Shown: positions 3 to 18,434, counted from the stretch's first letter. The stretch: 46,285 bases of DNA from Candidatus Gribaldobacteria bacterium (GCA_026396705.1 JAPLWE010000064.1:1-46285); one strand, 5' to 3'. Program-made: numbers and translations. The notes: a model not told the origin generated them from the sequence alone.

Positions 3-398
3 CCAAACCTGGGAGTTTATTTTGAATTAATTTTAGCTGATATTCCCGGGTTGATTGAAGGGGCCAGCGAGGGCAAGGGCTTGGGCATTAAGTTTTTACG
101 GCATATTGAAAGAACCAAAACACTCTTTCATTTCATCTCTGCAGAATCGCAAGATCCTCTAAAAGATTATGAAATTATTAGAAACGAACTTGGCGCCTAC
201 AACCAAGAATTATTAAATAGAGCCGAGTATATTTTCTTAAGCAAGATTGACTTGGTGAGCAAGGAAGAGCTGGCTCAAAAATTAAAAAAACTAAGCGTCT
301 TAAACAAGGAAGTCCTTCCCATCTCCGTGATTGACCCCGAAAGCCTCGCTCAAGTTGAAAAACTCCTGCGCGAAATCATCAAACAAAAAACTATATGA
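3..398 (+). CDS. obg: Obg/CgtA GTPase, C-terminal part (5' end outside window)
   Basis: The frame is open from the window edge. The translation PNLGVYFELILADIPGLIEGASEGKGLGIKFLRHIERTKTLFHFIS matches the Obg G-domain (DxPGLIEGA, GLGxxFLRHIERT). The TGA stop at 396-398 overlaps the next ATG. Confidence 0.9.
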   Translation, partial: PNLGVYFELILADIPGLIEGASEGKGLGIKFLRHIERTKTLFHFISAESQDPLKDYEIIRNELGAYNQELLNRAEYIFLSKIDLVSKEELAQKLKKLSVLNKEVLPISVIDPESLAQVEKLLREIIKQKTI

Positions 399-1102
399 CA
401 ATTACTTTGAGAAAATTAAAGGAACAGTTAGAAAAAATAAAAGAGATAGGTTTTGTTAAAACTCATAGGATGAATGATACAGGTATCGGCAAAACCCTCG
501 AGGATCTTTTAGGTATTAAAGAAAATAATTTACGGCTTCCTGATGTTGGTGAAGTTGAATTAAAAGCTAAAAGGATTGACTCTGGCAGCATGCTTACCGT
601 TGCTACAAAATCGCCAGAGCCAAAGGGGATAAATAGAGTTTTATTTGAGAAGTACAAATATTTAGACAAAGAGGGAAAATATAATTTACATTCTACTGTT
701 TGCGGATCGCGAAGTAATCCGCAGTCATTTAGAGTTGTTTTTGAGGGTGAGAAGCTTGTTTTAAAAAATAAATCTAAAATAGGGGTATATTGGCCTATTT
801 CTATTTTTGATGATGTTCTGAAAGCGAAATCAGAAAAAATTCTGTTGGTATTCGCGGAAACAAAAGGTGAGAGAAAAACTAAAAATGAAAAGTTTCATTT
901 CACAGAAGCTTATTTACTTTCTAATCTTAATATCAATAAATTCAAGTCCGCTGTTGAAAGCGATAAATTGAAAGTTGATGTTAGAATAGGCGTTTATAGA
1001 AGCGGAAAGAATAAAGGAAAATATCACGACCATGGCACTGGTTTTAGAATAAGCAAAAGAGATTTCCTGCATCTTTTTGACAAACTTACTCAAATTATTT
1101 AG
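395..1102 (+). CDS. Type II restriction endonuclease, BcnI/MvaI family (MutH-like PD-(D/E)xK)
   Basis: 235-aa ORF. The blocks GIGKTLEDLLGIKENN..PDVGEVELKAKR and EKILLVFAETKGER..EKFHFTEAYLL..HDHGTGFRISKRDF match my recollection of R.BcnI (DLGEFELKG; EKLVLVFAETIGR..EQFHFTKAYML..HDRGPHLRI). It is convergent with a DNA methyltransferase. Confidence 0.8.
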   Translation: MTITLRKLKEQLEKIKEIGFVKTHRMNDTGIGKTLEDLLGIKENNLRLPDVGEVELKAKRIDSGSMLTVATKSPEPKGINRVLFEKYKYLDKEGKYNLHSTVCGSRSNPQSFRVVFEGEKLVLKNKSKIGVYWPISIFDDVLKAKSEKILLVFAETKGERKTKNEKFHFTEAYLLSNLNINKFKSAVESDKLKVDVRIGVYRSGKNKGKYHDHGTGFRISKRDFLHLFDKLTQII

Positions 1103-5823: not shown

Positions 5824-7500
5824 ATGACACAAGAACAAGCGTTGGAAATTTTGAAGACTGGGGCGAATGTTTTTTTGACTGGGGAGCCCGGCTCGGGCAA
5901 AACCTATACAGTTAATCAATACGCTGATTATTTAAGAGAGCATAATATTCAGCCAGCCATTACCGCCTCTACTGGAATTGCTGCCACCCATTTGAATGGC
6001 ATTACTATCCATTCGTGGGCGGGTATTGGCATAAAAGAGCATCTCTCACGAGGGGACTTAGAGAAAATCGCCAAAACCGCTTATGTTGTTAAGCGCGTGG
6101 CCAAAGCCAAGGTTTTGATTATTGATGAAATTTCTATGCTAGAAGCTGGCACTTTTGGCTTGGTTGATTTAGTTTGCCAGCAAATTTTTCAATCTAAGCA
6201 GCCGTTCGGCGGGTTGCAGGTAGTGGTGGTGGGCGATTTTTTTCAACTGCCGCCAATCGGCAAAGTTGGCCAAGCGCAGTTTGCTTTTAAGTCGCCCTCT
6301 TGGCAAAAAGCCAACTTTGCGGTTTGCTATTTAACCGAGCAATATCGCCAAGACGACGAAGCTTTTTTAACAATGCTATCGGCCATCAGATCTAATGGCT
6401 TCACCGAAAAGCATCTGGCCAATATCCAAAGCAGAGTTATTGAGCCCGATAAGTCGCCTAAAGACATCACGCGTATTTTTTCGCACAATATGGATGTAGA
6501 TAGAATTAACAGCCAAGAGTTGGGCCAGCTTTCGGGCAAGGCCGAATTTTTTCAGATGTTTTCTCGGGGTCAAAGTAATTTTGTGGATAGCTTAAAAAAG
6601 GGTTGCCTCTCGCCCGAAACATTAGAGCTAAAAAAAGACGCTTGCGTGATGTTTACTAAAAATAATCTTAAGGAGGGGTTTGTTAATGGCACCATTGGCA
6701 AGGTTATTGGCTTTAGCGAGGAGAGCAATTATCCGGTTGTTAAAATAACCAGCGGCGAGGAAATTGAAGTATCGCCGATGGAGTGGACCATTGAAGAGCA
6801 TGGCGACATTAAAGCCAGAATTACTCAAGTACCCTTGCGATTGGCTTGGGCGATTACTATTCATAAAAGCCAAGGCATGAGCTTGGATATGGCGGTGATG
6901 GATTTGCAAAAAGTATTTGAGTTTGGTCAAGGCTATGTGGCTTTATCAAGGGTGAGGCGGTTGTCTGGGCTTTATCTTTTGGGCTATAACCAAAAAGCGT
7001 TTTTGACACATCCAGAAATGCAAAATCAAGACAGAATTTTCAGAGAACAATCCCAACAAATTCAGGATGATTTTATTTTAATGTTAAAAGATGAAATTAT
7101 CAGCCAGCAAAATAACTTTCTAATAGCTTGTGGTGGGGCGCTATCTAAACAGGCGCTAAGCAAGAAAAGTCCAGCAGTCAAAAAGGAAAAAACCAGCACT
7201 TATGATAAAACTATGGCTTTGATTAATGAAGGAAAAAATATTGAGGAAATCACCAAGGCTCGCGGCGTTACCCAAGGAACAATCATTGGCCATTTAGAAA
7301 ACCTTGTCTTAAAAGATAAAATTAATCAGGAAGGCTTAGAGCAATTAGTTGAGGAGGGCTTACTGGCCAAAATACCAGAAATTGGCCAGGTCTTTCGCGA
7401 GCTGGACACTGACAAGCTCTCAGTGGTTTTTGAAAAGTTCGCTGGCGAATATTCTTACGACCAACTCCGCCTGGCCAGGCTATTTCTGTCTTTTAATTAA
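5824..7500 (+). CDS. PIF1/RecD-like SF1 DNA helicase with C-terminal HTH region
   Basis: Walker A TGEPGSGKTY, Walker B LIIDEISML, VVVGDFFQLPPI and ITIHKSQGMSLD. The C-terminal ~100 aa look like the helicase-associated HTH tail. Confidence 0.85.
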   Translation: MTQEQALEILKTGANVFLTGEPGSGKTYTVNQYADYLREHNIQPAITASTGIAATHLNGITIHSWAGIGIKEHLSRGDLEKIAKTAYVVKRVAKAKVLIIDEISMLEAGTFGLVDLVCQQIFQSKQPFGGLQVVVVGDFFQLPPIGKVGQAQFAFKSPSWQKANFAVCYLTEQYRQDDEAFLTMLSAIRSNGFTEKHLANIQSRVIEPDKSPKDITRIFSHNMDVDRINSQELGQLSGKAEFFQMFSRGQSNFVDSLKKGCLSPETLELKKDACVMFTKNNLKEGFVNGTIGKVIGFSEESNYPVVKITSGEEIEVSPMEWTIEEHGDIKARITQVPLRLAWAITIHKSQGMSLDMAVMDLQKVFEFGQGYVALSRVRRLSGLYLLGYNQKAFLTHPEMQNQDRIFREQSQQIQDDFILMLKDEIISQQNNFLIACGGALSKQALSKKSPAVKKEKTSTYDKTMALINEGKNIEEITKARGVTQGTIIGHLENLVLKDKINQEGLEQLVEEGLLAKIPEIGQVFRELDTDKLSVVFEKFAGEYSYDQLRLARLFLSFN

Positions 7501-7514
7501 AATTATGGTTAGGC

Positions 7515-7545
7515 AAAAAACTGCAAGGGTGCAGTTTTTTCTTTT
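7515..7545 (+). terminator. Rho-independent terminator after helicase gene
   Basis: AAAAAACTGCA-AGGG-TGCAGTTTTTTCTTTT. Confidence 0.75.
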
Positions 7546-7579
7546 AACCTATGAAAAGTTAAGTAATTTTATAAAAAGC

Positions 7580-7611
7580 TTGACAGAAATATGGAAGGTA
7601 TGATATCATAG
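7580..7611 (+). promoter_or_regulatory. Predicted hsdM promoter with a perfect 12-bp palindrome over the -10
   Basis: TTGACA at 7580-7585, an 18-nt spacer, and an extended -10 TGaTATCAT (TATCAT 7604-7609). The palindrome TATGATATCATA lies at 7600-7611. The ATG is at 7618. Confidence 0.5.
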
Positions 7612-7617
7612 GAAAAT

Positions 7618-9327
7618 ATGCAAAAAACTAATCAAGATAAAAAATTGTTATCAATAGGGGAAGTTGCCAAAATTTTTGGATTAGACAGAGATACCCTTAG
7701 AAATTGGGAAAAGAAAGGTATTATTACGCCTTTACGCGTTGGTCCACGGGGCGATCGAAAATATCGGCCAGAAGATATTGAGAAAATTTCAAATGATAAA
7801 AGTATCGTTAAAGATCTTGGCGTGCCACTTACAGACGACGAAGGGAAAATGAACCTTACTCAACTTAAACAGTTTCTTTGGAAAAGCGCTGATATTTTAA
7901 GGGGTAAGATTGACAGCTCGGATTACAAAAAGTATATTTTTGGGCTTTTGTTTTACAAAAGAATGAGCGATGTTTGGGACGAAGAATATCATTTTGTAAT
8001 GGAAGAATACAGAGATGACATAGTTGCTGATGCTGACTATAATCACCGATTTCAAGTGCCCAAAGATTGTCGCTGGGAAATAATTCAAAAGCAAGCCGAA
8101 GGCATTGGGCCAAAGCTTAATGAAATTTTTGAAAAACTAACTACTGCTAATAGCCCCAAGCTGGATAAAATTTTTGATGATTTGGATTTTGCCAACAAAG
8201 ATAAATTTCCAAACGAAACATTACAAAAGCTGATAAACAACTTTTCAAAACATAATTTTGGTGATAATTATATTAGCTCCGACTTGCTGGGTGATGCTTA
8301 TGAATATCTTATTGAGCAATTTGCGCAGGATGCTGGAAAAAAAGGCGGGGAGTTTTATACCCCGCGAGAAGTTGAGCGGGTGATTATAAATATCTTAAAG
8401 CCCCACGAAAAAGACCACATCTATGATATGTGTGTTGGCTCGGGCGGCTTTCTTTTGGAGGCGTATCATTACCTTAAAGACCAATCAAGCGAGAAGAAAG
8501 CTCGCTCGCTTTATTTATATGGACAGGAAATCAACATCGGCACTTACGCTATTGCCAAAATCAATATGTTTTTGCATGGCCTTGATTCCGCTGATATCCA
8601 ACGAGGGGACACCTTGACTGACCCAAGGTTTCTAAGCCCCGATGGCTCGCTAAAAACATTTGATATTTGCGTGGCCAATCCGCCTTATTCAATCAGTGAA
8701 TGGGAATATGAAACATTTAAAAATGATAAGCACGGCCGAGTGGCTGGCTATGAAATGCCTCCAACCAAAAAAGCCGACTACGCTTTTGTGCTACATATGG
8801 TTAAATCAATGAACGAAAATGGCAAAGCTGGCATTGTGCTGCCACACGGAGTGCTTTTTCGCGGTGGGGCGGAAGGCCGCATCAGGGAACAGCTTATTAA
8901 AAACGACTTAATTGAGGCCATTATCGCTTTGCCCTCAAAGCTTTTTTATGGCACGGGTATACCAGCGGCCATTGTGATATTTAATAAAAACAAACCACAA
9001 AGCCATAAAAATAAAATTTTGATTATTGACGGGGAAAAAGATTTTGAAGAAGGTAAAAACCAAAACCGTTTGCGCAAAAAAGACATTGAAAAAATAGTGT
9101 TGGCTTTTGAGGGCTATCGGGACATTGAAAAATACGCCCGAGTGGTTGATATAAAAGAGTTAAAAGAAAATGAGTTTAACCTAAATGTTCGCCGTTATGT
9201 GGAAAATGGCGAGGAGGAGGAAGTGGTGGATGTAAAAACCGTTTGGGCTGAATTGAAAGAAATTGAAAAATCTCGCGAAACCATCAACAAAAAAGTTGAG
9301 GAGTATCTTAAAAAATTAAAGTATTAA
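7618..9327 (+). CDS. hsdM: Type I R-M methyltransferase subunit HsdM with N-terminal MerR/excisionase-type HTH
   Basis: The N-terminus LLSIGEVAKIFGLDRDTLRNWEKKGIITP..RKYRPEDI is a MerR-type HTH. It is followed by GEFYTPREV, motif I DMCVGSGGFL and motif IV VANPPYS. Confidence 0.93.
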   Translation: MQKTNQDKKLLSIGEVAKIFGLDRDTLRNWEKKGIITPLRVGPRGDRKYRPEDIEKISNDKSIVKDLGVPLTDDEGKMNLTQLKQFLWKSADILRGKIDSSDYKKYIFGLLFYKRMSDVWDEEYHFVMEEYRDDIVADADYNHRFQVPKDCRWEIIQKQAEGIGPKLNEIFEKLTTANSPKLDKIFDDLDFANKDKFPNETLQKLINNFSKHNFGDNYISSDLLGDAYEYLIEQFAQDAGKKGGEFYTPREVERVIINILKPHEKDHIYDMCVGSGGFLLEAYHYLKDQSSEKKARSLYLYGQEINIGTYAIAKINMFLHGLDSADIQRGDTLTDPRFLSPDGSLKTFDICVANPPYSISEWEYETFKNDKHGRVAGYEMPPTKKADYAFVLHMVKSMNENGKAGIVLPHGVLFRGGAEGRIREQLIKNDLIEAIIALPSKLFYGTGIPAAIVIFNKNKPQSHKNKILIIDGEKDFEEGKNQNRLRKKDIEKIVLAFEGYRDIEKYARVVDIKELKENEFNLNVRRYVENGEEEEVVDVKTVWAELKEIEKSRETINKKVEEYLKKLKY

Positions 9328-9337
9328 AGTAATCTTT

Positions 9338-9850
9338 ATGGATCATTCTGAAATTAAGAAATTTTTAGAATTGTTCGAAGCCAAAAGAAGTCGCACAGTA
9401 GTCGTGGTTGACTTTGGAAATGTGGAAAAGTGGAAAGAGAGTTTGGGGTGGCGTGTGGGCATACGAGAGCTTGCCGCTTTGGTTAAGCATTTTACTTATG
9501 GCCACCGTTTTTTGCGTCGTTTTTATTATGGAGCTGATTATGGTAAAGATGAAAAATCAACAGCACTGACTAATTGGTCAAAATACATCTTGCGTACCGC
9601 TGACCTAAATGGTTTTGAGGTTATTGATAAGAGGGTAAAATATATCCATAGTCAGAAAAATGTTTATGGTTTTGAAAAGAAATGTGATTTGGATGTCGAG
9701 ATGGCGGTTGATTTTATGCGTGAACGAGACAATTATGATAATATTGTGTTATTTTCTGGAGATGGCGATTTGGTTGCGGCGTTGAAATATCTCTATGAAG
9801 AATACAGTAAAAAAATAATAATTATGAGCGCTCGTGGTCATATTGGCTGA
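9338..9850 (+). CDS. NYN-domain (LabA-like) predicted ribonuclease, ending at an in-frame TGA (homology-like frame continues to 9952)
   Basis: VVVVDFGNVEKW, KKCDLDVEMAVD and VLFSGDGDLVAALKYL are the acidic NYN motifs. After the TGA at 9848-9850 the same frame reads EIIDAKRDKIIEDILYADDF..., as expected for the family C-terminus. Confidence 0.7.
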   Translation: MDHSEIKKFLELFEAKRSRTVVVVDFGNVEKWKESLGWRVGIRELAALVKHFTYGHRFLRRFYYGADYGKDEKSTALTNWSKYILRTADLNGFEVIDKRVKYIHSQKNVYGFEKKCDLDVEMAVDFMRERDNYDNIVLFSGDGDLVAALKYLYEEYSKKIIIMSARGHIG

Positions 9851-10234
9851 GAGATTATTGACGCAAAACGAGATAAAATTATTGAAGATATTCTTTATGC
9901 GGACGATTTTGAGTACCGGTTAAATATGGATAGGTTTCGCAAAAAGAGCTAAAAAATCAAAAGCCCCTACCTTGCGGCAGGGCTTCGATCAAAATCCGTG
10001 TAAGCCAAAGCTTACGATTTAATAATATCAAATTAAGCACGAATGTCAAGGATTTTATCCACAAGCCCTAACCATTTTGTTGGCGCCAACAAAACGATAG
10101 AATTGATGAAGTATGATTTTGTGGAAGATTTTGATTATTTTGTAGCCTCCCCCCAATTTGGGGATGGATTTGACACTTAAGCAACAGGCAAAATTATTGT
10201 CGTTAAAAAATTAAAAAGATAACAAAAAAAATTT

Positions 10235-11077
10235 ATGGAGCAACAAATTATTGTAAAACTACATAAAAATTTTGAGGATTGTGTTCACGAAAAAGATGGC
10301 GTGGAGTTTTGGTATGCCCGAGAGTTGCAAGAACTTCTTGGCTACGATAAGTGGGACAACTTTGAGAATGTTGTCAATAAAGCAAAGATCGCCTGTGAAA
10401 CTGCCAATCAAAAAATTTCCGACCATTTTGCCGACGTCGGGAAAATGGTTGACTTGGGCTCTGGGAGTAAGCGAGAAGTGGCCGATATTATGCTAACCCG
10501 TTATGCCTGCTACCTTATAGCTCAAAATGGCGACCCAAGAAAAAATGAAATTGCTTTTGCGATGACTTATTTTGCTATTCAGACACGCAAACAAGAGGTA
10601 GTAGAACAACGATTAGCGCAATGGGAGCGTTTGCACGCCAGAGAAAAACTGACTATTTCCGAAAAAACTCTTTCGGGTGTTTTATTCGAGCGGGGTGTTG
10701 ACGGCCAAGGGTTCGCCAGAATACGGAGTAAGGGTGATTCGGCTTTATTTGGCGGATATTCCACGCAAGATATGAAAAACAAACTAGGCGTGCCTGATGG
10801 CCGGCCATTGGCTGATTTTTTGCCAGGTGTTACCATAAAAGCCAAAGATTTAGCCAATGAGATAACCAGTTTTAATGTAAAAAAAGACCAAGCATTAAAA
10901 GGTGAAACACCCATTACCTATGAGCATGTGAAAAATAACGAGAATATGCGCGAGATGCTGGCTAAAAGTGGTATTCAGCCCGAGGCCTTACCGCCCGAAG
11001 AAGACACAAAAAAACTTGAACGCAAACTAAAATCCGAAAACAAAAAACTGCCCAAATCCGCTAAAAAATTAAAATAA
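10235..11077 (+). CDS. dinD: DNA-damage-inducible protein D (DinD) family protein
   Basis: The region FEDCVHEKDGVEFWYARELQELLGYDKWDNFENVVNKAKIACE..DHF..KREVADIMLTRYACYLIAQNGDPRK is characteristic of DinD. A Lys-rich tail follows. Confidence 0.8.
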   Translation: MEQQIIVKLHKNFEDCVHEKDGVEFWYARELQELLGYDKWDNFENVVNKAKIACETANQKISDHFADVGKMVDLGSGSKREVADIMLTRYACYLIAQNGDPRKNEIAFAMTYFAIQTRKQEVVEQRLAQWERLHAREKLTISEKTLSGVLFERGVDGQGFARIRSKGDSALFGGYSTQDMKNKLGVPDGRPLADFLPGVTIKAKDLANEITSFNVKKDQALKGETPITYEHVKNNENMREMLAKSGIQPEALPPEEDTKKLERKLKSENKKLPKSAKKLK

Positions 11078-11123
11078 TAATAAAAAGTTGAGGAATATTT
11101 AAAAGTGTTAAAATATTAAATTT

Positions 11124-11915
11124 ATGTCTGAAGATGTTAAGGAAGAAAAAGAGAAAATCAGCAAACACAAGTTCTTTTTTGAATTACCATTGTATACACC
11201 AATTGAGCTTGGTGATCTAGAGAAGAGCTTTTGGGAATTTTTCAAAGGGGATGTTGATGCTTATAGTCCAGATGGATTTGATACTACTTATACTATTGCG
11301 ATCTGGAACCTTGGTCAAAGTGATAGTACATACAATGGTTATTATGCACTAAATCTTGAGTGTAAGAGAAAAGGAAACACTTTAGAATTTTTTATTTATA
11401 AAACAAATGAGGCTATTATGAAGGTCGGCCAGCTCTTATCGCTTGTCGATTTGCAATATGCCGAGATTGAGAAAAAATACGACAAAGTACTTCCTAGACA
11501 AGATTTACACGATCTAAAAAAGGCCATTGGGCTTATGACACACGGCGCAGGGGCAGGCTCGCTCGTATATTTAAGGAGAATATTTGAAAATATTATTTGG
11601 AATACTTATAAAGAATATAAAGCATCAATCGGAGTTGCTGATGAAGAATTTTTAAAAAAGCGGATGGATGAAAAGGTTGATTTTCTTAAAACTTTCCTAC
11701 CGAGCCAGTTAGTAGAAATGAAAAGTATTTATGGAATTTTAAGTAAGGGAGTTCACGAATTAACTGAGGAAGAATGTCTTACTTATTTTCCTGCGTTAAA
11801 GCTTTCAATTATTCTTATTCTTGATCAAAAAATTGAAGAAGATGCTCGAAGCAAGAAAGATGCGGAAACTAAAAGGGCGATAGCTGATATTGCCAAACAG
11901 ATAAATGGAAAATAA
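11124..11915 (+). CDS. Hypothetical protein with DUF4145-like C-terminal helical domain
   Basis: The C-terminal half (GAGSLVYLRRIFENII..YGILSKGVHELTEEECLTYFPALKLSIILILD) follows the DUF4145 pattern often seen next to R-M genes. Its stop overlaps the hsdS start. Confidence 0.55.
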   Translation: MSEDVKEEKEKISKHKFFFELPLYTPIELGDLEKSFWEFFKGDVDAYSPDGFDTTYTIAIWNLGQSDSTYNGYYALNLECKRKGNTLEFFIYKTNEAIMKVGQLLSLVDLQYAEIEKKYDKVLPRQDLHDLKKAIGLMTHGAGAGSLVYLRRIFENIIWNTYKEYKASIGVADEEFLKKRMDEKVDFLKTFLPSQLVEMKSIYGILSKGVHELTEEECLTYFPALKLSIILILDQKIEEDARSKKDAETKRAIADIAKQINGK

Positions 11916-13086
11916 AATTATACAAAAGAATATTCCGAGCGGGTGGCAAGAAGCGAATCTTGGCGATATCACTGACTTATATCAGCCCGAAACTATATCC
12001 AAAAACCAAATGTTATCAGCTGGGAAGTATTTAGTTTTTGGCGCCAATGGGGTTATTGGAAAATATAATAGATTTAACCATGAAGATTCAGAAGTTATTG
12101 TCACTTGTAGGGGTGCTTCTTGCGGTTCCATCAGTATGACACCAAAACAAGCATGGATTACCGGTAATGCCATGGTTATTAAAGTAAATGAAAATAAAAT
12201 TATAAAGCCCTATATATATTATTTTCTAAAAAATTCTAACCTGAACACTGTGATTTCTGGCGGTGCGCAACCCCAAATCACAAGACAGCCAATTTCGGCA
12301 TACAGAATATTATTTCCAAAATCAAAAACCGAGCAGCAAAAGATTGCGGGGATTTTGGGGGCGGTGGATGAGGATATTGCCAAAACCCAGGAAGTGATTG
12401 AGGCGACAGAAAAGCTCAAACGCGGATTGATGCAACAGCTTTTTACCCGCGGTATTGGCCATACAAAATTTAAGGAAACAAAAATCGGACAGATTCCAGA
12501 GGAGTGGGAGGTTGTAAAGTTATCAGAAATTGCACAAGTAGAGCGCGGAAAATTCTCACATAGACCACGCAATGCCCCTGAATTTTATGGTGGCGATATT
12601 CCATTTATCCAAACTGGTGATGTCGTTAATTCAAATGGTAAAATTTCTTTATACACTCAAACCTTAAATGAAAAAGGGCTGTCAGTCAGTAAATTATTTA
12701 AAAAGGGAACAATAGTAATTACTATTGCGGCAAATATTGGCGATACGGGAATATTACAATTTGATTCATGTTTCCCCGATAGTTTAATAGGCATTACTTC
12801 CTCAGAAAAAATTGATTCAATATTTCTTGAATATTATCTTAGAACCCAAAAAGAATATCTGAACAGTATTTCCACTCAATCTGCTCAAAAGAATATTAAC
12901 TTAGAAAAATTAAATCCACTTCCGATAATATTGCCAACAAAAGATGAGCAGAAGAAAATTGCCAACATTCTTTCAGCGGTTGATGAAAAAATTTCGGTTA
13001 ATAAAAAATTAAAAGCAAAACTTACCACGCTTAAAAAAGGCCTAATGCAGGATTTATTGAGCGGGAAAGTAAGAGTTAAAAATTAA
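11905..13086 (+). CDS. hsdS: Type I R-M specificity subunit HsdS (two target-recognition domains)
   Basis: Two variable halves are each followed by the conserved coiled-coil region: EQQKIAGILGAVDEDIAKTQEVI..LKRGLMQQLF and EQKKIANILSAVDEKISVNKKLK..LKKGLMQDLL. Confidence 0.9.
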   Translation: MENKIIQKNIPSGWQEANLGDITDLYQPETISKNQMLSAGKYLVFGANGVIGKYNRFNHEDSEVIVTCRGASCGSISMTPKQAWITGNAMVIKVNENKIIKPYIYYFLKNSNLNTVISGGAQPQITRQPISAYRILFPKSKTEQQKIAGILGAVDEDIAKTQEVIEATEKLKRGLMQQLFTRGIGHTKFKETKIGQIPEEWEVVKLSEIAQVERGKFSHRPRNAPEFYGGDIPFIQTGDVVNSNGKISLYTQTLNEKGLSVSKLFKKGTIVITIAANIGDTGILQFDSCFPDSLIGITSSEKIDSIFLEYYLRTQKEYLNSISTQSAQKNINLEKLNPLPIILPTKDEQKKIANILSAVDEKISVNKKLKAKLTTLKKGLMQDLLSGKVRVKN

Positions 13087-13150
13087 AAATATGTTTAGAT
13101 TTAACTTAATAGAAAAAATAAAGCTGATATTTAATATCAAAGCATCGAAC

Positions 13151-13199
13151 AGGAGAGCCGTTGATAGTAGGAGAGCCGTTGATAGTAGGAGGGCTGGTG
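13151..13199. repeat. 18-bp tandem repeat, 2 perfect copies plus a degenerate third
   Basis: AGGAGAGCCGTTGATAGT occurs at 13151-13168 and 13169-13186, followed by AGGAGGGCTGGTG. Confidence 0.85.
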
Positions 13200-13462
13200 T
13201 TTTAGTTGAGGGTAGAAGTTCCACTTTTGTAAATTGTAAAGGAATTGGGCCAGACGCTGGCATGATAGACAAAGGAAAATGTACGAAAGTAATCAATAGT
13301 GAATGGATAGCCACAGGAAAAAAATAAAAAGCCGAGGCATGGACAAGAAACCCAACCCCGACTTTAATGCATTTCTATTATAACCTACTTTAAGATTAAA
13401 ATTCAGCAAAACGATTTAGTAAAATGTCTAAAAACCCAGTATTTTAAGGCAAAATAAGGGCA

Positions 13463-13495
13463 TTTACTTTACTATATCAGTGTAGTAATATAGTA
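13463..13495 (+). promoter_or_regulatory. Possible promoter of the AAA ATPase gene with an overlapping inverted repeat
   Basis: TTTACT (13463-13468), 17 nt, TAATAT (13486-13491). The IR TACTATAT (13470-13477) / ATATAGTA (13488-13495) covers the spacer and the -10. Confidence 0.35.
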
Positions 13496-13534
13496 GGTGG
13501 CGTTACTGTATCACTCTAGAAATATATCAAATAT

Positions 13535-14968
13535 ATGGAAGAAATACTAAAATATGTCCAAAATCAGCTTGTTCAAGTCCCTTTTCGGTTACGGTCTTAT
13601 ATTCAAGACGAGCAGGGCAAAAAGTACCCTCAAAGAAATATCTATATTAAGGTTGATAAATATTTGAGAGATTTTTTGCATAATCCAGAAGCCCGAGATC
13701 GCTGGATTATTATTCCTGGCTTGCGTGGTGTTGGTAAAACCACAATTCTTGCTCAATTGTTTCTTAACCATTACGAAGAAGTCGGCCAACAGAGAATGCT
13801 TTATATTTCGCTTGATGAGGTAGTGAACGTTTTAGGTTCGTCTCTTAAAGACATTTTATCAGCTTATGAAAAAACAATCGGTGAAAGTTTTGAAAAAATC
13901 AATAAGCCGTTGTTTATTTTTATTGACGAAGCTCAATATGATTCCAAATGGGCGTCGGTATTGAAATCTGTTTACGACAGATCAAATAAGGTTTTTGTAG
14001 TTTGTAGCGGTTCTTCTGCTGTTTCTTTACAAACAAACCCAGATGTTATTCGTAGAGCGATTTTTGAGAAGTTATTTCCAACAAACTTTTGTGAATTTTT
14101 GATGATTAAGGAAAGCAAGTATCCAATCAAAAATTTAAAGAAAAATATTAAAGACGCCTTGTTCTTATCTAATTCGGCAAAAGAAGCTTATGATAAATTA
14201 AAAAATTACGAACAATCGGTATTCAGCTTTTGGTCACAGGTAGATCGTCTCTATATTGATGAGTACCTAAAAGTCGGGACTCTCCCATTTGCTGTTAGAA
14301 TCAAAGATGAAGTTCGTGTTTATCAAACCATAAATTTGTTGCTTGATAAGGTTATTAATCAAGATGTTCAAGGCCTTGGTCGTTTTGATCCAAAAACTAT
14401 TAGCTATATTAAGAGAGTTTTATTTTTACTCGCCGAGTCGGAAGTTTTAAGCGTGCAAAAATTAGCCAAAACCCTTGAGATTAGCGTTAACACGGCTTCA
14501 AGTATCCTCGAGGTATTAGAATACACCGAACTATTAATAAGGATTATGCCATATGGTTCTAACGCAAAAAAAGTAAGAAAACCATCAAAATATCAATTTA
14601 TGTCATCGGCTATGCGGTCGGCATTTTTATCGGTTGCTGGAAACTCACAGATGTTTGCTCAGCAAAAAGGCAGATTGATGGAAGATATTGTTGCTATGAT
14701 TATATATCGCGAGTTTGTTGCTAATAGTAGGGGCGCTTTAAATTATGATAGTTCAAAGGGTGGCGCTGATTTTATTTTAACCATCGCGGAAAAAAATATA
14801 ATCCCAATTGAAGTAGGCATGGGCGAGAAACTTGGTACGCAGGTTAGAAATACTATGAAAAAAGTTGGTTCGGCTAAGTATGGCGTAGTAATTTGTAGCA
14901 ACCCACTCGCATTACTGGAAGATGCCAATGTGGTAAAGATTCCACTTGATTATTTCCTTTTAATTTAA
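13535..14968 (+). CDS. AAA+ ATPase with C-terminal PD-(D/E)xK-like module (COG1373-like)
   Basis: Walker A PGLRGVGKTT and Walker B LFIFIDEAQY. The C-terminus GGADFILTIAEKNIIPIEVGMGEK resembles the nuclease-like D..E-x-K module of this family. Confidence 0.75.
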   Translation: MEEILKYVQNQLVQVPFRLRSYIQDEQGKKYPQRNIYIKVDKYLRDFLHNPEARDRWIIIPGLRGVGKTTILAQLFLNHYEEVGQQRMLYISLDEVVNVLGSSLKDILSAYEKTIGESFEKINKPLFIFIDEAQYDSKWASVLKSVYDRSNKVFVVCSGSSAVSLQTNPDVIRRAIFEKLFPTNFCEFLMIKESKYPIKNLKKNIKDALFLSNSAKEAYDKLKNYEQSVFSFWSQVDRLYIDEYLKVGTLPFAVRIKDEVRVYQTINLLLDKVINQDVQGLGRFDPKTISYIKRVLFLLAESEVLSVQKLAKTLEISVNTASSILEVLEYTELLIRIMPYGSNAKKVRKPSKYQFMSSAMRSAFLSVAGNSQMFAQQKGRLMEDIVAMIIYREFVANSRGALNYDSSKGGADFILTIAEKNIIPIEVGMGEKLGTQVRNTMKKVGSAKYGVVICSNPLALLEDANVVKIPLDYFLLI

Positions 14969-14973
14969 TTTTT

Positions 14974-17886
14974 ATGAAATTCAATGAGCAGGTGACAATT
15001 GAGGGGTATATTATTAAGTTTATTAAAGATAAGCTGGGGTTTGAGTATATCAAGCCCGAGGAGTTTGCGGGGTTGAGGGGGCTGGAGAGCGAGTATATTA
15101 TTACCTCGCAACTTTTGGAGGCGGTGAAAAGAATAAACAATGTTGATGATGAGGTGGCGCAAACCGTGGTTCGGGAAGTTAAAAAAATTGATAGCAACCA
15201 AGAATTTTTGCATAAACTCCGCAATGGCATCAATCTTAAAAATCCAGCCACAGGAAACTTTCAGGATTATAGGTTGCTTGATTTTGAGAAGCCAGAAAAC
15301 AATCACTTTGTGGTTACTAACCAGTTTTATTTTGAGGGCAACGCCGAAAATATCCGAGCCGATGTGATGGTTTTTGTGAATGGGCTTCCCCTGGTGGTTA
15401 TTGAAGCCAAAAGCCCCACGGCTTCAGAAAGTGTTAGCTTTGAAAATGGCATTGACCAGATCAAGCGATACGAAAAAAATGCTCGCCGATTGTTTATTCC
15501 GAATTGCTTTAATATCGCCAGCGACGGCTTAAAAACTGTCTATGGGGCAACGGGCGCCTCCAAACAATACTTTTTTCAGTGGAAAGATGTTGAAATTGAA
15601 AAAGAGTTTGGGGGCGAGTTGGAAATGACGCTTTTTTCTTTGCTTTTCAAAGAAAATCTTTTAGATATTATTCAAAATTTTATATTGTTTGAAAAAGAAA
15701 AAGAGAAGCTGGTGAAAAAAATTGCCCGCTATCAGCAAATGCGAGCCACCAATAAAATAGTGGCAAGAGTTGTTACCAAAGAAAAACAGCAAGGCCTTAT
15801 CTGGCACACGCAAGGGTCGGGCAAAACTCTCACAATGTTTTTTACCGCCTGGAAACTGCGGTTTAATAAATTGCTAGCCAATCCCAAGGTGTTTATTTTG
15901 GTTGATAGGGTGGATTTGGACGATCAGATATTTGAAACATTTATCAATGCTGGGGGTAAAAATGTTGAGCGGGTTACTTCCAGAAAAGATTTAGAAGACA
16001 AAATACAAGCCAAAGCCAGCGGGATATTTATTTCTACTATGCAAAAGTTTTCCGAGCTTGGCAATAAAGTGGAAAATTTGGACGAGAATGTGATTATTTT
16101 ATCCGATGAAGCTCACCGAGGCAACGAAGGCGTGTCGGGCATCAATATGCGCCACGCGTTTAAGAAAGCGTTTTTCTTTGGATTCACTGGCACGCCAGTT
16201 GATAAAACCCACACTAACACTTTTCGCAATTACGAGGGAGAAGGTAAGCGCTATTTGGATTATTATTCTATCCAGCAGGCTATTGATGATGGGGCAACAA
16301 TTCCCGTAACTTATGAGGCGCGGCTTTCAAAATTTGCCATTGCTGGTGATAAATTAGACGAGGAGTTTGAAAAAATATCAGGCGACCTTTCAGACAAACA
16401 AAAAACCGAGCTAATGAAAAAACACGCCCGAAAGGCGGCCTTAGTAAAACTGCCAAAACGGATGGAAGCGGTGGCCAAAGATATTGTAGAGCATTACAAG
16501 CTTTATGTGGCGCCAAACGGATTTAAAGCGCAGATTGTGGCTTACGACAGAGAGGCGGTGGCTGGTTATAAAAAACTGTTGGATAAGCTTGTGCCAGCTG
16601 AATGGTCGGCGGTGGTTTATTCACCCGGCGACCCAAACAGCGACTCGGATGATTTAAAAGTTTATAACACCAGCAAAAGAGAACGCGAGCAAGTTATTGA
16701 GAAATTTAAAGATCCAAAATCGTCTTTGCGGTTTCTTTTAGTGTGCGATATGTTGCTAACCGGTTTTGACGCGCCCATTGAACAAGTAATGTATTTAGAC
16801 AAAGCGTTGCGCGACCACAATTTGTTGCAGGCGATTGCCCGCACTAATCGCGTGTATAAAAACAAAGAAGCGGGAAAAATTATTGATTATTATGGCATCA
16901 CTCGCAATCTTTACGACGCCTTGGATTTTGACGAGGATGTGGTTGATTCAGCCATGATTGATATTGAAAGAATAAAAGAGCGGTTTGTGAATGTTTTGAA
17001 CGATACGATGAAAATATTTATTGGCGTGAATATAGAAGACCCATCAATAGACAACTTACGAAGATGTTTGAAAATTTTTATTGATAATCAAGACAAGCAG
17101 AAGTATTTTATGGAAAAGTACGCCAAGCTTAAAAGCTTGTTTGAATTTCTATCGCCTGATCCATTTTTAAAGCAATATATTCGGTCGTTTGAATGGGTAA
17201 CCAGTTTTTACTTGGCATTTTTAAAAGAATTTCAAACCAGCCAAGATAGATACTTGCTTGAAGAGTATGGTGAAAAAGTAAAGGCGCTAATTCAAAAAAG
17301 CGATATTATTGATTACGAGGGCATTACCAAGAATTTTAGAGAGCTTCGGGTAGACGATTTATACACACTTGAGCGGCTAAAAGGAATGGACGAAGAGCAA
17401 AAAGCGCTTAATCTTGAAAAAATGCTTAAGCAGGAGATTTCCATTAACCTTGATGAAAATCCAGCTTATCAAAAGTTTAGCGAGCGGCTTATGGCCATAA
17501 GGCAAGAATTTGAGCAAAATCAGATTGATCTGGCTGAAAGAATTCGCCGGTATGAGCAATTAATGAAAGATATTAGAACAAAGGGGAACGAGGCCAAAGA
17601 AATGGGGCTTGACTTAAAAGAGTATGCTTTATATGTGATTTCGCAGGAGTTTGTTGAAGCCGGTAAAGATGAAGCGATCAAAGAATTTGTAAAAGAATTA
17701 CGAGTTCGCGTTGAAGATGAGCTTGATGCAGGTTGGCAAGAGTCCTCAAAGCGAGATGCGTTTATCAAAGATGTAAAGCAAAATTTGCAAGAGCTTATTT
17801 TGCGAGATTATAAGGACAGATTTAGCGTAAAAGATTTTCCAAAGTTCTTGAATAGGTTGGTAGATATAATCACTAAAAAGTTTTAG
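14974..17886 (+). CDS. hsdR: Type I restriction endonuclease subunit HsdR
   Basis: N-terminal nuclease motif RADVMVFVNGLPLVVIEAKSP, then helicase motifs HTQGSGKTLTMF and ILSDEAHRG. 970 aa. Confidence 0.93.
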   Translation: MKFNEQVTIEGYIIKFIKDKLGFEYIKPEEFAGLRGLESEYIITSQLLEAVKRINNVDDEVAQTVVREVKKIDSNQEFLHKLRNGINLKNPATGNFQDYRLLDFEKPENNHFVVTNQFYFEGNAENIRADVMVFVNGLPLVVIEAKSPTASESVSFENGIDQIKRYEKNARRLFIPNCFNIASDGLKTVYGATGASKQYFFQWKDVEIEKEFGGELEMTLFSLLFKENLLDIIQNFILFEKEKEKLVKKIARYQQMRATNKIVARVVTKEKQQGLIWHTQGSGKTLTMFFTAWKLRFNKLLANPKVFILVDRVDLDDQIFETFINAGGKNVERVTSRKDLEDKIQAKASGIFISTMQKFSELGNKVENLDENVIILSDEAHRGNEGVSGINMRHAFKKAFFFGFTGTPVDKTHTNTFRNYEGEGKRYLDYYSIQQAIDDGATIPVTYEARLSKFAIAGDKLDEEFEKISGDLSDKQKTELMKKHARKAALVKLPKRMEAVAKDIVEHYKLYVAPNGFKAQIVAYDREAVAGYKKLLDKLVPAEWSAVVYSPGDPNSDSDDLKVYNTSKREREQVIEKFKDPKSSLRFLLVCDMLLTGFDAPIEQVMYLDKALRDHNLLQAIARTNRVYKNKEAGKIIDYYGITRNLYDALDFDEDVVDSAMIDIERIKERFVNVLNDTMKIFIGVNIEDPSIDNLRRCLKIFIDNQDKQKYFMEKYAKLKSLFEFLSPDPFLKQYIRSFEWVTSFYLAFLKEFQTSQDRYLLEEYGEKVKALIQKSDIIDYEGITKNFRELRVDDLYTLERLKGMDEEQKALNLEKMLKQEISINLDENPAYQKFSERLMAIRQEFEQNQIDLAERIRRYEQLMKDIRTKGNEAKEMGLDLKEYALYVISQEFVEAGKDEAIKEFVKELRVRVEDELDAGWQESSKRDAFIKDVKQNLQELILRDYKDRFSVKDFPKFLNRLVDIITKKF

Positions 17887-17891
17887 AGGTT

Positions 17892-18434
17892 ATGGAAAAT
17901 AAAATTTCTTATAAACTTAAAAGGAGTAAAAGAGCAAAGCGAATGCGCCTTGCGGTATATTGTGATGGTAGTGTGGTAGTTACCAGCCCACTTGGGGTAG
18001 AACAACCAATTATTGAAAAGTTTATAACGCAAAAGTCGCAATGGGTTATTGGTAAATTGGAATATTTTAAGAGCATTTCAGTGCAGGCATTTGTAAAAGG
18101 CGGCAAAAGAGATTATAAAAAGCATAAAGAATTTGCTTTGGCTTTAGCGCAGAGGAGGATTGAGTATTTTAATAAAGTTTACGGTTTTGAATTTAACAAA
18201 ATAAATATTAAAAACCAGAAAACCCGCTGGGGGAGTTGTTCGCGAAAAGGCAATTTGAATTTTAACTACAAAATTGTTTTGCTTTCGGAGCGATTGGCCG
18301 ATTATATTATTTGCCATGAGTTATGCCACTTAAAAGAGTTTAACCACTCGCAAAAATTTTGGAATCTGCTGGCCAAAGCCGTGCCGGATTATTTGGATAT
18401 AAGAAAAGAATTAAAGAAAAGTAGAATAAATTAA
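17892..18434 (+). CDS. DUF45/YgjP-type (M48-like) zinc metallopeptidase
   Basis: TRWGSCSRKGNLNFNYKIVLL..DYIICHELCHLKEFNHSQKFW contains the HExxH motif in its family context. This family is commonly linked to hsdR. Confidence 0.85.
   Translation: MENKISYKLKRSKRAKRMRLAVYCDGSVVVTSPLGVEQPIIEKFITQKSQWVIGKLEYFKSISVQAFVKGGKRDYKKHKEFALALAQRRIEYFNKVYGFEFNKINIKNQKTRWGSCSRKGNLNFNYKIVLLSERLADYIICHELCHLKEFNHSQKFWNLLAKAVPDYLDIRKELKKSRIN

What the first reader, a model, noticed from the sequence alone, without database searches (positions are those of the whole stretch)
9338..11915. NYN nuclease + DinD + DUF4145 block occupies the slot where type I systems keep latent abortive-infection nucleases
Directly after hsdM sits a predicted NYN (PIN-like) ribonuclease, followed by a DinD-family protein and a DUF4145-like helical protein whose stop overlaps hsdS. 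In EcoprrI the anticodon nuclease PrrC sits between hsd genes and is held inactive by the R-M complex until a phage inhibits restriction. An RNase-type domain in the equivalent position invites the same guard logic. E. coli dinD is an SOS-regulated gene whose product has been reported to inhibit RecA. Together with the LexA-MTase fusion 5 kb upstream, this window repeatedly links restriction with DNA-damage signalling. I know of no described system with this three-gene composition.
Basis: inference. Interest (0 to 1): 0.7.

Follow-up and report, generated by a model that had tools for sequence, protein, structure and literature searches.

The report
Gene cassettes stacked in restriction operon
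The three genes are not one system but separate add-on cassettes sitting in a hot spot of a restriction-modification operon; one of them is a broken RNA-cutting enzyme that, in every genome examined, travels with a small RNA gene absent from Rfam and from the papers I could search.

Summary
The genes are real. 9338-9952 is an NYN (PIN-like) RNase gene with an in-frame TGA at a near-invariant Arg. 10235-11077 is a full-length DinD homologue. 11124-11915 ("X263") overlaps hsdS by 11 nt. X263 matches no Pfam model, DUF4145 included; its C-terminal half has only a weak HEPN-like fold.

The trio is not a conserved unit. None of 65 NYN loci holds DinD or X263, and none of 80 X263 loci holds DinD or an intact NYN of this family. 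Relatives carry hsdM-X263-hsdS without an insert, or with other inserts (Bro-N; PemK-DinD-PemK). A 44-nt repeat of the hsdM 3' end brackets the 1.8-kb NYN+DinD insert.

The "spacer" after NYN holds a ~62-nt small RNA gene (9954-10017, minus strand). It is convergent to NYN, has its own conserved promoter, and shows strong covariation. It occurs once per NYN locus (67 hits in 863 kb) and has no Rfam match.

NYN lies mostly outside hsd loci and is broken in about 12 of 65 species while the sRNA persists. It is also broken in this window and in a sister contig. I read NYN+sRNA as a self-contained toxin/RNA-antitoxin-like module, dead here, not a PrrC-style nuclease guarded by Hsd. X263 is the gene truly linked to R-M.

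The parts
7618..9327 (+). hsdM with an N-terminal MerR-type HTH. It forms the left border of the insertion hot spot.
   Evidence: Pfam N6_Mtase 3.5e-110, HsdM_N, MerR_1. Relatives L001, L003, L073 and L163 have the same architecture.
9290..9333 (.). Copy 1 of a 44-nt imperfect direct repeat, covering the hsdM 3' end plus its stop codon.
   Evidence: the repeat finder family D1: 80% identity, spacing 1792 nt, the longest direct repeat in 7000-14000.
9338..9952 (+). NYN (PIN-like) RNase gene, 204 codons, inactivated by an in-frame TGA at codon 171.
   Evidence: Pfam PF01936. More than 860 homologues of 203-204 aa at 65-82% identity. Alignment A1 shows the catalytic Asp residues conserved and Arg171 near-invariant.
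9848..9850 (+). TGA nonsense codon, most simply a CGA-to-TGA change at Arg171.
   Evidence: The sister contig L073 reads GGC CGA GAG here.
9954..10017 (-). Small RNA gene of about 62 nt, convergent to NYN. It has a 5' hairpin, a near-invariant single-stranded AUUUUGAUC, and a GC-rich terminator hairpin followed by a U-run that abuts the NYN stop codon.
   Evidence: Covariance model R1 scores 60.2 bits, E 3e-9, and finds one hit per NYN locus: 67 hits in 863 kb. 93% of cells are paired, 14 of 18 pairs show compensatory changes, and 0 of 500 shuffles reach this. G-U 92 against A-C 12. MFE -26.2 kcal/mol, z -3.65, against -17.2 on the other strand. No Rfam match.
10022..10049 (-). Sigma-70-type promoter of the small RNA: TTGACA, 16 nt, TATTAT with an extended -10 TG.
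   Evidence: 11 of 12 match. The -35 and extended -10 are nearly invariant across 50 loci (alignment A5).
10055..10063 (+). TTATCCACA, a DnaA-box-like motif just upstream of the sRNA -35 box.
   Evidence: Exact in 16 of 65 loci and within 1 mismatch in 29 of 65, in the 100 nt upstream of the sRNA. Background is 0.0024 and 0.033 per 100 nt.
10096..10170 (+). Frameshifted remnant of an AntA/AntB-type antirepressor ORF.
   Evidence: It aligns to an ORF of L073 that hits PF08346 AntA at E 1e-14.
10137..10234 (+). Leader of the DinD cassette, with a promoter-like site at 10170-10197.
   Evidence: Window 10137-11080 is 92% identical to L164 5904-6846. Promoter scan.
10235..11077 (+). DinD-family (Bro-N) gene, intact.
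   Evidence: NCBIfam NF008573 at 348 bits, covering positions 1-287 of the 288-position profile. PADLOC PDC-S13. PHROG 8036, function unknown.
11082..11125 (.). Copy 2 of the direct repeat. It is a relic of the ancestral hsdM-tail/X263 junction and translates to KVEEYLKVLKY*.
   Evidence: The junction aligns with the uninterrupted hsdM|X263 junction of L003 and with a shorter relic in L001.
11124..11915 (+). X263: a 263-aa protein of a large unannotated family, with an N-terminal beta-sheet domain and a C-terminal helical, weakly HEPN-like domain. Its stop codon lies 11 nt inside hsdS, which suggests translational coupling.
   Evidence: 2342 clusters at 50% identity with E<=1e-3. No Pfam hit. 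AF2 pLDDT 85.5 for the whole protein and 91.7 for the C-domain. Foldseek top hits are HEPN proteins, all with E>0.5. Genomic contexts.
11905..13086 (+). hsdS.
   Evidence: Pfam Methylase_S 2.2e-50.
13535..14968 (+). AAA_14/DUF4143 ATPase (PADLOC PDC-S01), occupying a second variable slot between hsdS and hsdR.
   Evidence: The same slot holds DUF3800, an NYN paralogue or an unknown gene in relatives.
14974..18434 (+). hsdR (14974-17886) followed by a YgjP-like metallopeptidase (17892-18434).
   Evidence: Pfam. Both are conserved in relatives.

Best explanation
The block is a stack of three independent accessory units in the hsdM-hsdS gap of a type I R-M operon of a candidate-phyla-radiation (CPR) bacterium (Candidatus Gribaldobacteria). 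It is not a three-gene system.

**(1) NYN plus small RNA.** NYN and a convergent ~62-nt small RNA form a self-contained two-part module.
- Shown: strict one-to-one linkage; the RNA has its own strong promoter; RNA-level covariation.
- Inferred: it works like a toxin/RNA-antitoxin or abortive-infection module. An RNase would be held in check by an abundant small RNA, either by antisense overlap with the 3' end of the NYN mRNA or by direct binding through the near-invariant AUUUUGAUC stretch. The RNase would be released when transcription of the RNA fails.
- In this window the toxin half is dead (Arg171 to TGA) and the RNA half is intact.

**(2) DinD.** It is a separate, mobile, stand-alone gene already listed as defence candidate PDC-S13. 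It arrived as a ~0.94-kb cassette.

**(3) X263.** It is the only stable partner of the R-M genes and appears translationally coupled to hsdS.
- It recurs in type I loci and beside N6_N4-methylase/ResIII genes.
- Inferred, with low confidence: it is an accessory sensor or effector subunit of R-M methylase complexes. That makes it the better candidate for a PrrC-like role.

**How the insert arose.** The insert is bracketed by a duplicated hsdM 3' end, which points to cassette exchange by recombination at this junction.
For: **Not a unit.**
- L003 has hsdM-X263-hsdS with a 4-nt gap.
- L001 has a Bro-N gene only 33% identical to this DinD at the same junction.
- L163-165 have hsdM-PemK-DinD (96% identical)-PemK-hsdS, without NYN or X263.
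- None of 65 NYN loci holds DinD or X263.
- None of 80 X263 loci holds DinD.

**Insert borders.**
- 44-nt repeat.
- Junction alignment across loci.

**NYN+sRNA module.**
- One R1 hit per NYN locus; no hit unlinked to an NYN gene or remnant in the 863 kb or in a further 383 kb.
- Covariation, strand asymmetry, promoter conservation.

**Toxin-like behaviour.**
- About 12 of 65 species loci carry nonsense, frameshifted or internally deleted NYN next to an intact sRNA. No intact NYN lacks the sRNA.
- L134 keeps only the last 7 NYN codons plus the sRNA.
- The sister contig L073 has NYN residues ~42-168 deleted but the sRNA intact.
- PemK toxins in L164 lack a protein antitoxin gene and are likewise followed by a convergent promoter, the first also by a terminator.

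**NYN not Hsd-specific.**
- Contexts.

**X263 linked to R-M.**
- Of 26 well-flanked loci, 7 are with hsd genes and 6 with a 731-aa N6_N4 methylase and/or ResIII.
- X263 is tightly abutted or overlapping its neighbours in these loci.
Against: - No expression data exist. The sRNA, its promoter and any toxicity are predictions.
- NYN proteins are 65-82% identical across distant CPR lineages, and many sit among housekeeping genes. This also fits a conserved cellular RNase with a dedicated RNA partner.
- The related NYN candidate HEC-09 gave no phage defence when tested.
- The sRNA does not pair with the NYN start region better than with control genes. In L033 it lies upstream on the same strand. 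The antisense variant of the mechanism is therefore weak.
- Some broken NYN genes may be assembly errors in MAGs.
- X263 lacks the HEPN Rx4-6H arginine. Half of its well-flanked copies, and all 41 prophage copies with a callable ORF, have no R-M neighbour among those I screened for. It may act on its own.
Confidence: 0.6

Rival explanations
1. NYN, DinD and the third protein form one PrrC-like guard system: a latent RNase is held inactive by the HsdM/HsdS complex and released when a phage blocks restriction, with DinD linking it to DNA-damage signalling.
For: - All three genes lie co-directionally inside the operon, between hsdM and hsdS.
- NYN is recurrently next to hsdM.
- NYN-domain proteins of other subfamilies co-occur with X263 in 5 of 13 R-M loci.
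- PrrC is the precedent for a nuclease embedded in type I loci.
Against: - The trio never recurs.
- NYN is a pseudogene here and in the sister contig.
- About 85% of NYN copies are outside hsd loci, in varied positions.
- NYN has its own RNA partner.
- DinD relatives are stand-alone genes on plasmids and in unrelated islands.
- No SOS box lies near dinD.
Confidence: 0.05
2. NYN plus sRNA is not a conflict module. It is a cellular RNA-processing pair: the NYN RNase matures, is guided by, or is regulated by its neighbouring small RNA. Its presence in the hsd operon is an accidental insertion.
For: - Very high protein conservation and wide spread in CPR.
- Neighbours are often housekeeping genes such as CTP synthase, YceG and ribosomal proteins.
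- The near-invariant single-stranded motif suggests specific protein recognition.
- The family is absent from IMG/VR viral contigs.
- HEC-09 was inactive in defence assays.
Against: - High rate of gene decay with the RNA retained.
- Only 65 of 185,579 species representatives gave a locus, so distribution is patchy.
- The only recurrent neighbours are R-M genes: HsdM, DpnI, HsdR.
- The analogous layout after PemK toxins.
Confidence: 0.25
3. The TGA is a sequencing or assembly error, or is read through, so NYN is functional in this organism.
For: - The reading frame downstream of the TGA is intact, with all 10 invariant C-terminal residues preserved. The change is therefore very recent or not real.
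- It is a single-base difference from CGA.
Against: - The closest relative (L073) carries an independent large deletion in the same gene.
- Two other loci (L031, L053) align to NYN in a single frame over its full length but have shorter ORFs, which implies in-frame stops at other positions.
- All other long ORFs of the window read normally with the standard code, so there is no sign of UGA recoding.
Confidence: 0.12

Closest known systems
Genes 'embedded' in type I R-M operons: guilt-by-embedding phage-defence candidates (Payne et al. 2024, bioRxiv 10.1101/2024.01.29.577857). These include PDC-S13 (matched here by DinD), PDC-S01 (matched by the AAA_14/DUF4143 ATPase) and HEC-09 (an NYN-domain candidate).
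   Same: - Co-directional accessory genes nested between hsd genes.
- DinD hits PDC-S13 at E 8e-115, and the ATPase hits PDC-S01.
- NYN weakly hits the HEC-09 and 'NYN' models.
   Different: - The NYN family here is only distantly related to HEC-09 (E 2e-5 over 50 residues).
- It carries an RNA partner that the paper does not mention.
- X263 matches no PADLOC model.
- The organism is a CPR bacterium.
EcoprrI / PrrC anticodon nuclease.
   Same: A predicted RNase-type protein encoded inside a type I R-M operon.
   Different: - PrrC is almost exclusively embedded in type I loci; this NYN mostly is not.
- NYN is a PIN-like single-domain protein with its own small RNA, and it is inactivated here.
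- X263 is closer in genomic behaviour, but lacks the ATPase domain and the Rx4-6H arginine.
Type I toxin-antitoxin systems with 3'-overlapping antisense RNAs, e.g. B. subtilis yonT/SR6 (PMC5848175).
   Same: - A convergent small RNA gene with its own strong promoter.
- Its terminator abuts the 3' end of the putative toxin gene.
- The toxin half decays while the RNA half persists.
   Different: - The toxin would be a 204-aa RNase, not a small membrane peptide.
- The strongly conserved single-stranded motif and one tandem arrangement (L033) suggest RNA-protein rather than RNA-RNA control.
Type III toxin-antitoxin systems (ToxIN type).
   Same: An endoribonuclease-type toxin that would be neutralised by a structured small RNA.
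   Different: - From my own knowledge: ToxI-type antitoxins are tandem repeats upstream of the toxin in one operon, and the toxins have a different fold.
- Here the RNA is a single copy, convergent and downstream. No tandem repeats were found.
DUF4145 / HEPN superfamily (Anantharaman et al. 2013, PMC3710099).
   Same: - DUF4145-type HEPN domains are reported fused to, or in operons with, R-M components.
- The X263 C-domain retrieves HEPN structures first and has an invariant His at the start of its last helix.
   Different: - No Pfam DUF4145 or HEPN hit in any of the 45 family members scanned.
- Foldseek E-values are above 0.5.
- No Arg lies 4-6 residues before the His.

Membership tests
NYN domain (Pfam PF01936) | Profile score above the gathering threshold | tested here: met
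   56.8 bits against a cut-off of 24.2, E 4.8e-15, residues 19-178.
NYN domain (Pfam PF01936) | Conserved acidic active-site residues | tested here: met
   D25, D117, D119, D142 and D144 are invariant in 26 family members and present in the window.
NYN domain (Pfam PF01936) | Uninterrupted reading frame, i.e. a functional gene | tested here: not met
   TGA at codon 171 replaces a near-invariant Arg. It removes 33 residues that include 10 invariant positions.
DinD (NCBIfam NF008573, equivalog) | Full-length match above the curated cut-off | tested here: met
   348 bits against 242; residues 1-279 cover positions 1-287 of the 288-position profile. Bro-N domain confirmed.
DinD (NCBIfam NF008573, equivalog) | SOS (LexA) regulation, as for E. 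coli dinD | tested here: inconclusive
   No CTGT-N8-ACAG or GAAC-N4-GTTC site in 10060-10234. Window-wide counts are at or below chance. The LexA motif of CPR bacteria is unknown.
DinD (NCBIfam NF008573, equivalog) | Inhibition of RecA filaments | not testable with these tools
   This is a biochemical property. The literature search listed only titles and abstracts that mention DinD together with RecA filaments; no paper was opened.
DUF4145 (Pfam PF13643) | Profile match | tested here: not met
   No hit at E<=10 for the window protein. None for the 29 members of A2, 10 divergent representatives or 6 prophage homologues.
HEPN superfamily | Four-helix HEPN fold | tested here: inconclusive
   C-domain model pLDDT 91.7. 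The best Foldseek hits 1o3u, 1ufb, 3o10, 2q00 and 1wol are HEPN proteins with TM 0.44-0.62 normalised by target length. E-values are 0.57-2.8.
HEPN superfamily | Rx4-6H catalytic motif | tested here: not met
   H211 is invariant, but positions 205-207 are I, L and S. Only K208 is nearby (alignment A2).
PrrC-type R-M-guarded nuclease | Found almost only inside type I R-M loci | tested here: not met
   NYN is next to hsd genes in about 9 of 65 loci. X263 is with hsd genes in 7 of 26 well-flanked loci.
PrrC-type R-M-guarded nuclease | Physical masking by the R-M complex and release by phage anti-restriction factors | not testable with these tools
   Needs protein interaction and infection assays.
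Type I toxin-antitoxin | Antisense RNA overlapping the toxin mRNA | tested here: inconclusive
   The sRNA is convergent and its U-tail abuts the NYN stop codon. Overlap depends on where the NYN mRNA ends. L033 has a tandem arrangement.
Type I toxin-antitoxin | Small hydrophobic toxin peptide | tested here: not met
   The putative toxin is a 204-aa soluble NYN-domain protein.
Type III toxin-antitoxin | Tandem-repeat RNA antitoxin upstream of the toxin in one operon | tested here: not met
   Single-copy RNA, downstream and on the opposite strand. No tandem repeats were reported in the region.
Rfam families (release 15) | Covariance-model match of the small RNA | tested here: not met
   No hit at gathering score in the whole window. 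The only hit in 9800-10300 was rnk_pseudo at E 0.13, which is chance level.

The most novel reading that the evidence does not exclude
NYN plus its convergent ~62-nt RNA defines an undescribed class of RNase-toxin/RNA-antitoxin (or abortive-infection) modules in CPR bacteria. The similar promoter-and-hairpin layout behind antitoxin-less PemK genes may belong to the same class. The antitoxin promoter would be wired to a DnaA-box-like site. X263 would be a new HEPN-like effector or sensor family that partners with type I and type III-like restriction-modification methylases.
Probability: 0.3. Interest if true: 0.8.

Novelty: new variant of a known kind. Interest (0 to 1): 0.6.

Why it matters
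**For annotation.**
- The three-gene 'system' should not be propagated. It is a hot-spot stack of unrelated cassettes, one of them dead.

**For biology.**
- The hsdM-hsdS junction of this operon family behaves as an exchange site. Across relatives it holds NYN+sRNA, AntA, DinD, Bro-N and PemK. This extends the guilt-by-embedding picture to CPR bacteria, whose defence repertoire is poorly known.
- A small RNA with strong covariation, a conserved promoter and one-to-one linkage to an RNase gene in more than 60 species is a ready-made, testable candidate for a new RNA-controlled toxin module. It is absent from Rfam.
- X263 is a family of more than 2000 clusters with no annotation. It is tied to two kinds of R-M systems and also occurs as a prophage moron.

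Tried and rejected
- **Pfam, NCBIfam and PADLOC for X263.** No family hit. PHROGs gave only phrog_25239, of unknown function.
- **X263 against the HEPN-annotated gene before hsdS in L009.** Profile-profile comparison found no relation.
- **Foldseek of the whole X263 model.** Only noise plus weak RnlA and HEPN hits.
- **PDB sequence search for X263 and DinD.** Nothing. NYN hit only 2qip.
- **Rfam for the spacer.** Nothing meaningful.
- **SOS boxes near dinD.** None.
- **sRNA pairing with the NYN translation start.** Not better than with control genes: mean -16.6 against -19.7 kcal/mol.
- **NYN family in viral contigs.** None found.
- **DinD on plasmids.** Stand-alone genes, not in hsd operons.
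- **Integron attC reading of the hairpins.** Rejected by inspection. The G-U/A-C asymmetry and the conserved promoter point to an RNA, and I saw no R'/R'' core sites; I ran no attC search.
- **UGA recoding.** Rejected, because all other long ORFs are intact under the standard code.
- **Literature search for NYN-sRNA or CPR toxin-RNA modules.** Nothing found.
Full report
**Source and layout.** The window is a 46,285-nt contig of a Candidatus Gribaldobacteria MAG, a candidate-phyla-radiation (CPR) bacterium. Between 7.6 and 18.4 kb it carries one co-directional type I R-M operon:

| Coordinates | Feature |
|---|---|
| 7618-9327 | MerR-HTH::hsdM |
| 9338-9952 | NYN gene, with an in-frame TGA |
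| 9953-10234 | 282-nt 'spacer' |
| 10235-11077 | DinD homologue |
| 11124-11915 | 263-aa protein, here called X263 |
| 11905-13086 | hsdS |
| 13535-14968 | AAA_14/DUF4143 ATPase |
| 14974-17886 | hsdR |
| 17892-18434 | YgjP-like peptidase |

**Checking the observation.**
- The NYN call is right (PF01936, 56.8 bits).
- The family is large: more than 860 homologues, nearly all of 203-204 aa and 65-82% identical.
- The acidic residues D25, D117, D119, D142 and D144 are invariant in an alignment of 26 members and present here.
- The window ORF stops at codon 171, where 90% or more of the aligned family members have Arg. The frame then continues through 33 residues holding ten invariant positions.
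- The sister contig L073 has a nearly identical hsdM and reads CGA at that codon. It has independently lost residues ~42-168 of NYN. NYN is therefore decaying in this lineage.
- DinD is a full-length member of NCBIfam NF008573 (348 bits against a cut-off of 242) with a Bro-N domain. It matches PADLOC candidate PDC-S13.
- The third protein matches no Pfam family at any threshold tried. Neither do 44 other family members.
- The LexA-methylase fusion exists at 1099-2964 (-), next to an MvaI/BcnI endonuclease gene.

**Is the trio a unit? No.**
- L003 has hsdM followed after 4 nt by X263, then hsdS.
- L001 has a Bro-N gene at the junction that is only 33% identical to this DinD.
- The closest DinD (96% identical) lies in hsdM-PemK-DinD-PemK-99aa-hsdS, with neither NYN nor X263.
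- Of 65 species-level NYN loci, none holds DinD or X263 within 8 kb.
- Of 80 metagenomic X263 loci, none holds DinD, and only L134 holds a remnant of this NYN.
- A 44-nt imperfect repeat of the hsdM 3' end (9290-9333 and 11082-11125) brackets the 1.79-kb NYN+DinD insert. The second copy aligns with the uninterrupted hsdM|X263 junction of L003.
- Inside the insert, window 10137-11080 is 92% identical to the DinD cassette of L164.
- 10096-10170 is a frameshifted remnant of an AntA gene that is present, though itself apparently frameshifted, in L073.
- The junction is therefore a cassette hot spot. The hsdS-hsdR gap is a second one: it holds the AAA_14 ATPase here, and DUF3800, an NYN paralogue or an unknown gene in relatives.

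**The spacer holds a small RNA gene.**
- Immediately after the NYN stop codon, nearly all loci share a conserved element.
- On the minus strand it reads TTGACA, 16-17 nt, TGnTATAAT. The -35 and -10 boxes are almost invariant in 50 loci.
- Then follow a 6-bp hairpin, a single-stranded stretch with AUUUUGAUC nearly invariant, a GC-rich hairpin and a U-run.
- A covariance model built on it finds exactly one hit per NYN locus: 67 hits in 863 kb. All are convergent to NYN except L033. The model finds no hit unlinked to an NYN gene or remnant there or in a further 383 kb.
- The structure is well supported:
  - 93% of cells are paired, against 81% in shuffles and at most 52% in slid controls.
  - 14 of 18 pairs show compensatory changes.
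  - 0 of 500 shuffles reach the observed values on four of the five measures, and 1 of 500 on the fifth.
- G-U pairs outnumber A-C by 92 to 12, so the minus strand is the one under RNA-level selection.
- The window copy (9954-10017) scores 60.2 bits. It folds at -26.2 kcal/mol (z -3.65), against -17.2 for the other strand.
- Its promoter is intact, an 11 of 12 match with the extended -10 TG.
- Rfam 15 has no match. Three literature searches found no description.
- A DnaA-box-like TTATCCACA lies just upstream of the -35 box in 16 of 65 loci (exact) or 29 of 65 (one mismatch allowed). That is about 100-fold over background for exact matches. I cannot explain it.

**What NYN+sRNA probably is.**
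- The only recurrent neighbour families of NYN are HsdM (6 of 59 loci), DpnI (3) and HsdR (2). Everything else is a singleton or a pair.
- Many copies sit among housekeeping genes. That is unlike PrrC, which is almost confined to type I loci.
- About 12 of 65 species loci have a nonsense, frameshifted, truncated or internally deleted NYN next to an intact sRNA. Every intact NYN has the sRNA.
- In L164, two PemK-type toxins have no protein antitoxin gene nearby. Each is followed by a convergent promoter, and the first also by a terminator.
- These points fit a self-contained toxin/RNA-antitoxin-like or abortive-infection module, dead in this window.
- The mechanism is inferred, not shown.
- Two findings weigh against plain antisense control and favour RNA-protein recognition of the conserved motif. 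Pairing to the NYN start region is no better than to control genes. One locus, L033, has a tandem arrangement.
- The housekeeping-RNase rival remains open. The proteins are highly conserved, the family is absent from IMG/VR, and the distantly related NYN candidate HEC-09 gave no defence.

**X263.**
- The family has 2342 clusters at 50% identity with E<=1e-3, no Pfam model, and only PHROG 25239, of unknown function.
- AlphaFold models are confident: pLDDT 85.5 for the whole protein and 91.7 for the C-terminal domain. They show an N-terminal beta-sheet domain and a helical C-domain.
- The best structural neighbours of the C-domain are HEPN proteins, with TM 0.44-0.62 normalised by target length, but all E-values exceed 0.5.
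- H211 is invariant at the start of the last helix. The arginine of the Rx4-6H motif is absent.
- Among 26 loci with at least 1.5 kb on both sides, 7 are in type I operons. There X263 usually sits immediately before hsdS, often overlapping it.
- Another 6 follow a 731-aa N6_N4 methylase, with or without a ResIII helicase.
- In 5 of these 13 R-M loci an NYN protein of another subfamily is also present. These include a methylase-X263-WYL-NYN cassette in L122 and L126.
- In prophage contigs, X263 homologues are frequently opposite-strand inserts with none of the R-M genes I screened for nearby.
- X263 is thus the gene with a genuine, recurrent R-M link, and the better candidate for a PrrC-like role. 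Its function is unknown.

**DinD.**
- Close homologues (75-96% identical) are abundant in CPR.
- They occur in this hsd family, in a Fic/RhuM/Abi_C/GmrSD island, and in non-defence surroundings.
- More distant homologues on plasmids are stand-alone genes.
- No SOS box precedes the gene here. The link to DNA-damage signalling rests on the family name.

**Verdict.**
- The proposed three-gene guard system is not supported.
- The region is an instance of the known embedding of accessory and defence candidates in type I operons.
- It does contain two undescribed elements worth follow-up: the NYN-linked small RNA and the X263 family.

Noticed in passing
window 395-2964: An MvaI/BcnI-family restriction endonuclease gene (395-1102, +) lies beside a 621-aa fusion of the LexA DNA-binding domain, an S24 peptidase and an N6_N4 DNA methylase (1099-2964, -). 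This would be a methylase with a built-in self-cleaving repressor module.
   Followed up: partly
window 7618-7830, and L001, L003, L073, L163: HsdM carries an N-terminal MerR-type HTH in the window and in all close relatives. It may autoregulate the operon.
   Followed up: partly
window 13535-14968: An AAA_14/DUF4143 ATPase (PADLOC PDC-S01) fills the hsdS-hsdR gap. In relatives the same gap holds DUF3800, an NYN paralogue or an unknown gene, so it is a second variable slot.
   Followed up: partly
window 13151-13186: A perfect 18-bp tandem duplication (AGGAGAGCCGTTGATAGT, two copies) lies in the hsdS-ATPase intergenic region.
   Followed up: no
window 10055-10063 and upstream of the sRNA in 29 of 65 loci: A DnaA-box-like TTATCCACA sits 40-55 nt upstream of the sRNA 5' end, about 100-fold enriched over background for exact matches. 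L033 has three copies around its promoter.
   Followed up: partly
L164 5363-5880 and 6849-7340: Two PemK/MazF-type toxin genes embedded in the same hsd family have no protein antitoxin gene nearby. Each is followed by a convergent sigma-70-type promoter, the first also by a terminator, so both may have candidate RNA partners. The first also has TTATCCACA upstream of its promoter.
   Followed up: partly
L122 731-4819, L126 359-4507, L099: A recurrent cassette: N6_N4 methylase (about 690-730 aa), X263, a 91-aa WYL protein and an NYN protein (about 290-310 aa), with overlapping or abutting genes. L099 holds the methylase, X263 and an NYN protein; no WYL gene was detected there. L119 and L121 instead have methylase-ResIII-X263.
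   Followed up: partly
L170-L211 (IMG/VR): X263 homologues at 29-46% identity occur in 42 viral or prophage contigs. They are frequently single genes on the strand opposite their neighbours, often beside an ArpU/sigma-r4-like late regulator.
   Followed up: partly
L033 7820-8000: This is the only locus where the NYN-linked sRNA lies upstream of NYN on the same strand. It is a natural test of whether antisense overlap is needed.
   Followed up: partly
L134 1851-1940: X263 is followed by the last 7 codons of an NYN gene and an intact sRNA (56 bits). NYN has been deleted but its RNA kept.
   Followed up: yes
L009 377-12615: A different type I family (EcoEI-type HsdR) is heavily loaded with embedded genes: Fic, RadC, GmrSD, hsdR, NYN+sRNA, hsdM, a Trypsin_2 protein, a HEPN protein overlapping hsdS, KTSC and a second NYN.
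   Followed up: no
L073 2507-2767 and L164 7359-7658: Homologous small Cys-rich (CxxC...CxxC) proteins of 86 and 99 aa. The L164 copy overlaps the hsdS start, in the place X263 occupies elsewhere. Neither hits Pfam.
   Followed up: no
window 5824-7500: A Pif1-like helicase with a C-terminal HTH_40 domain lies directly upstream of the hsd operon.
   Followed up: no
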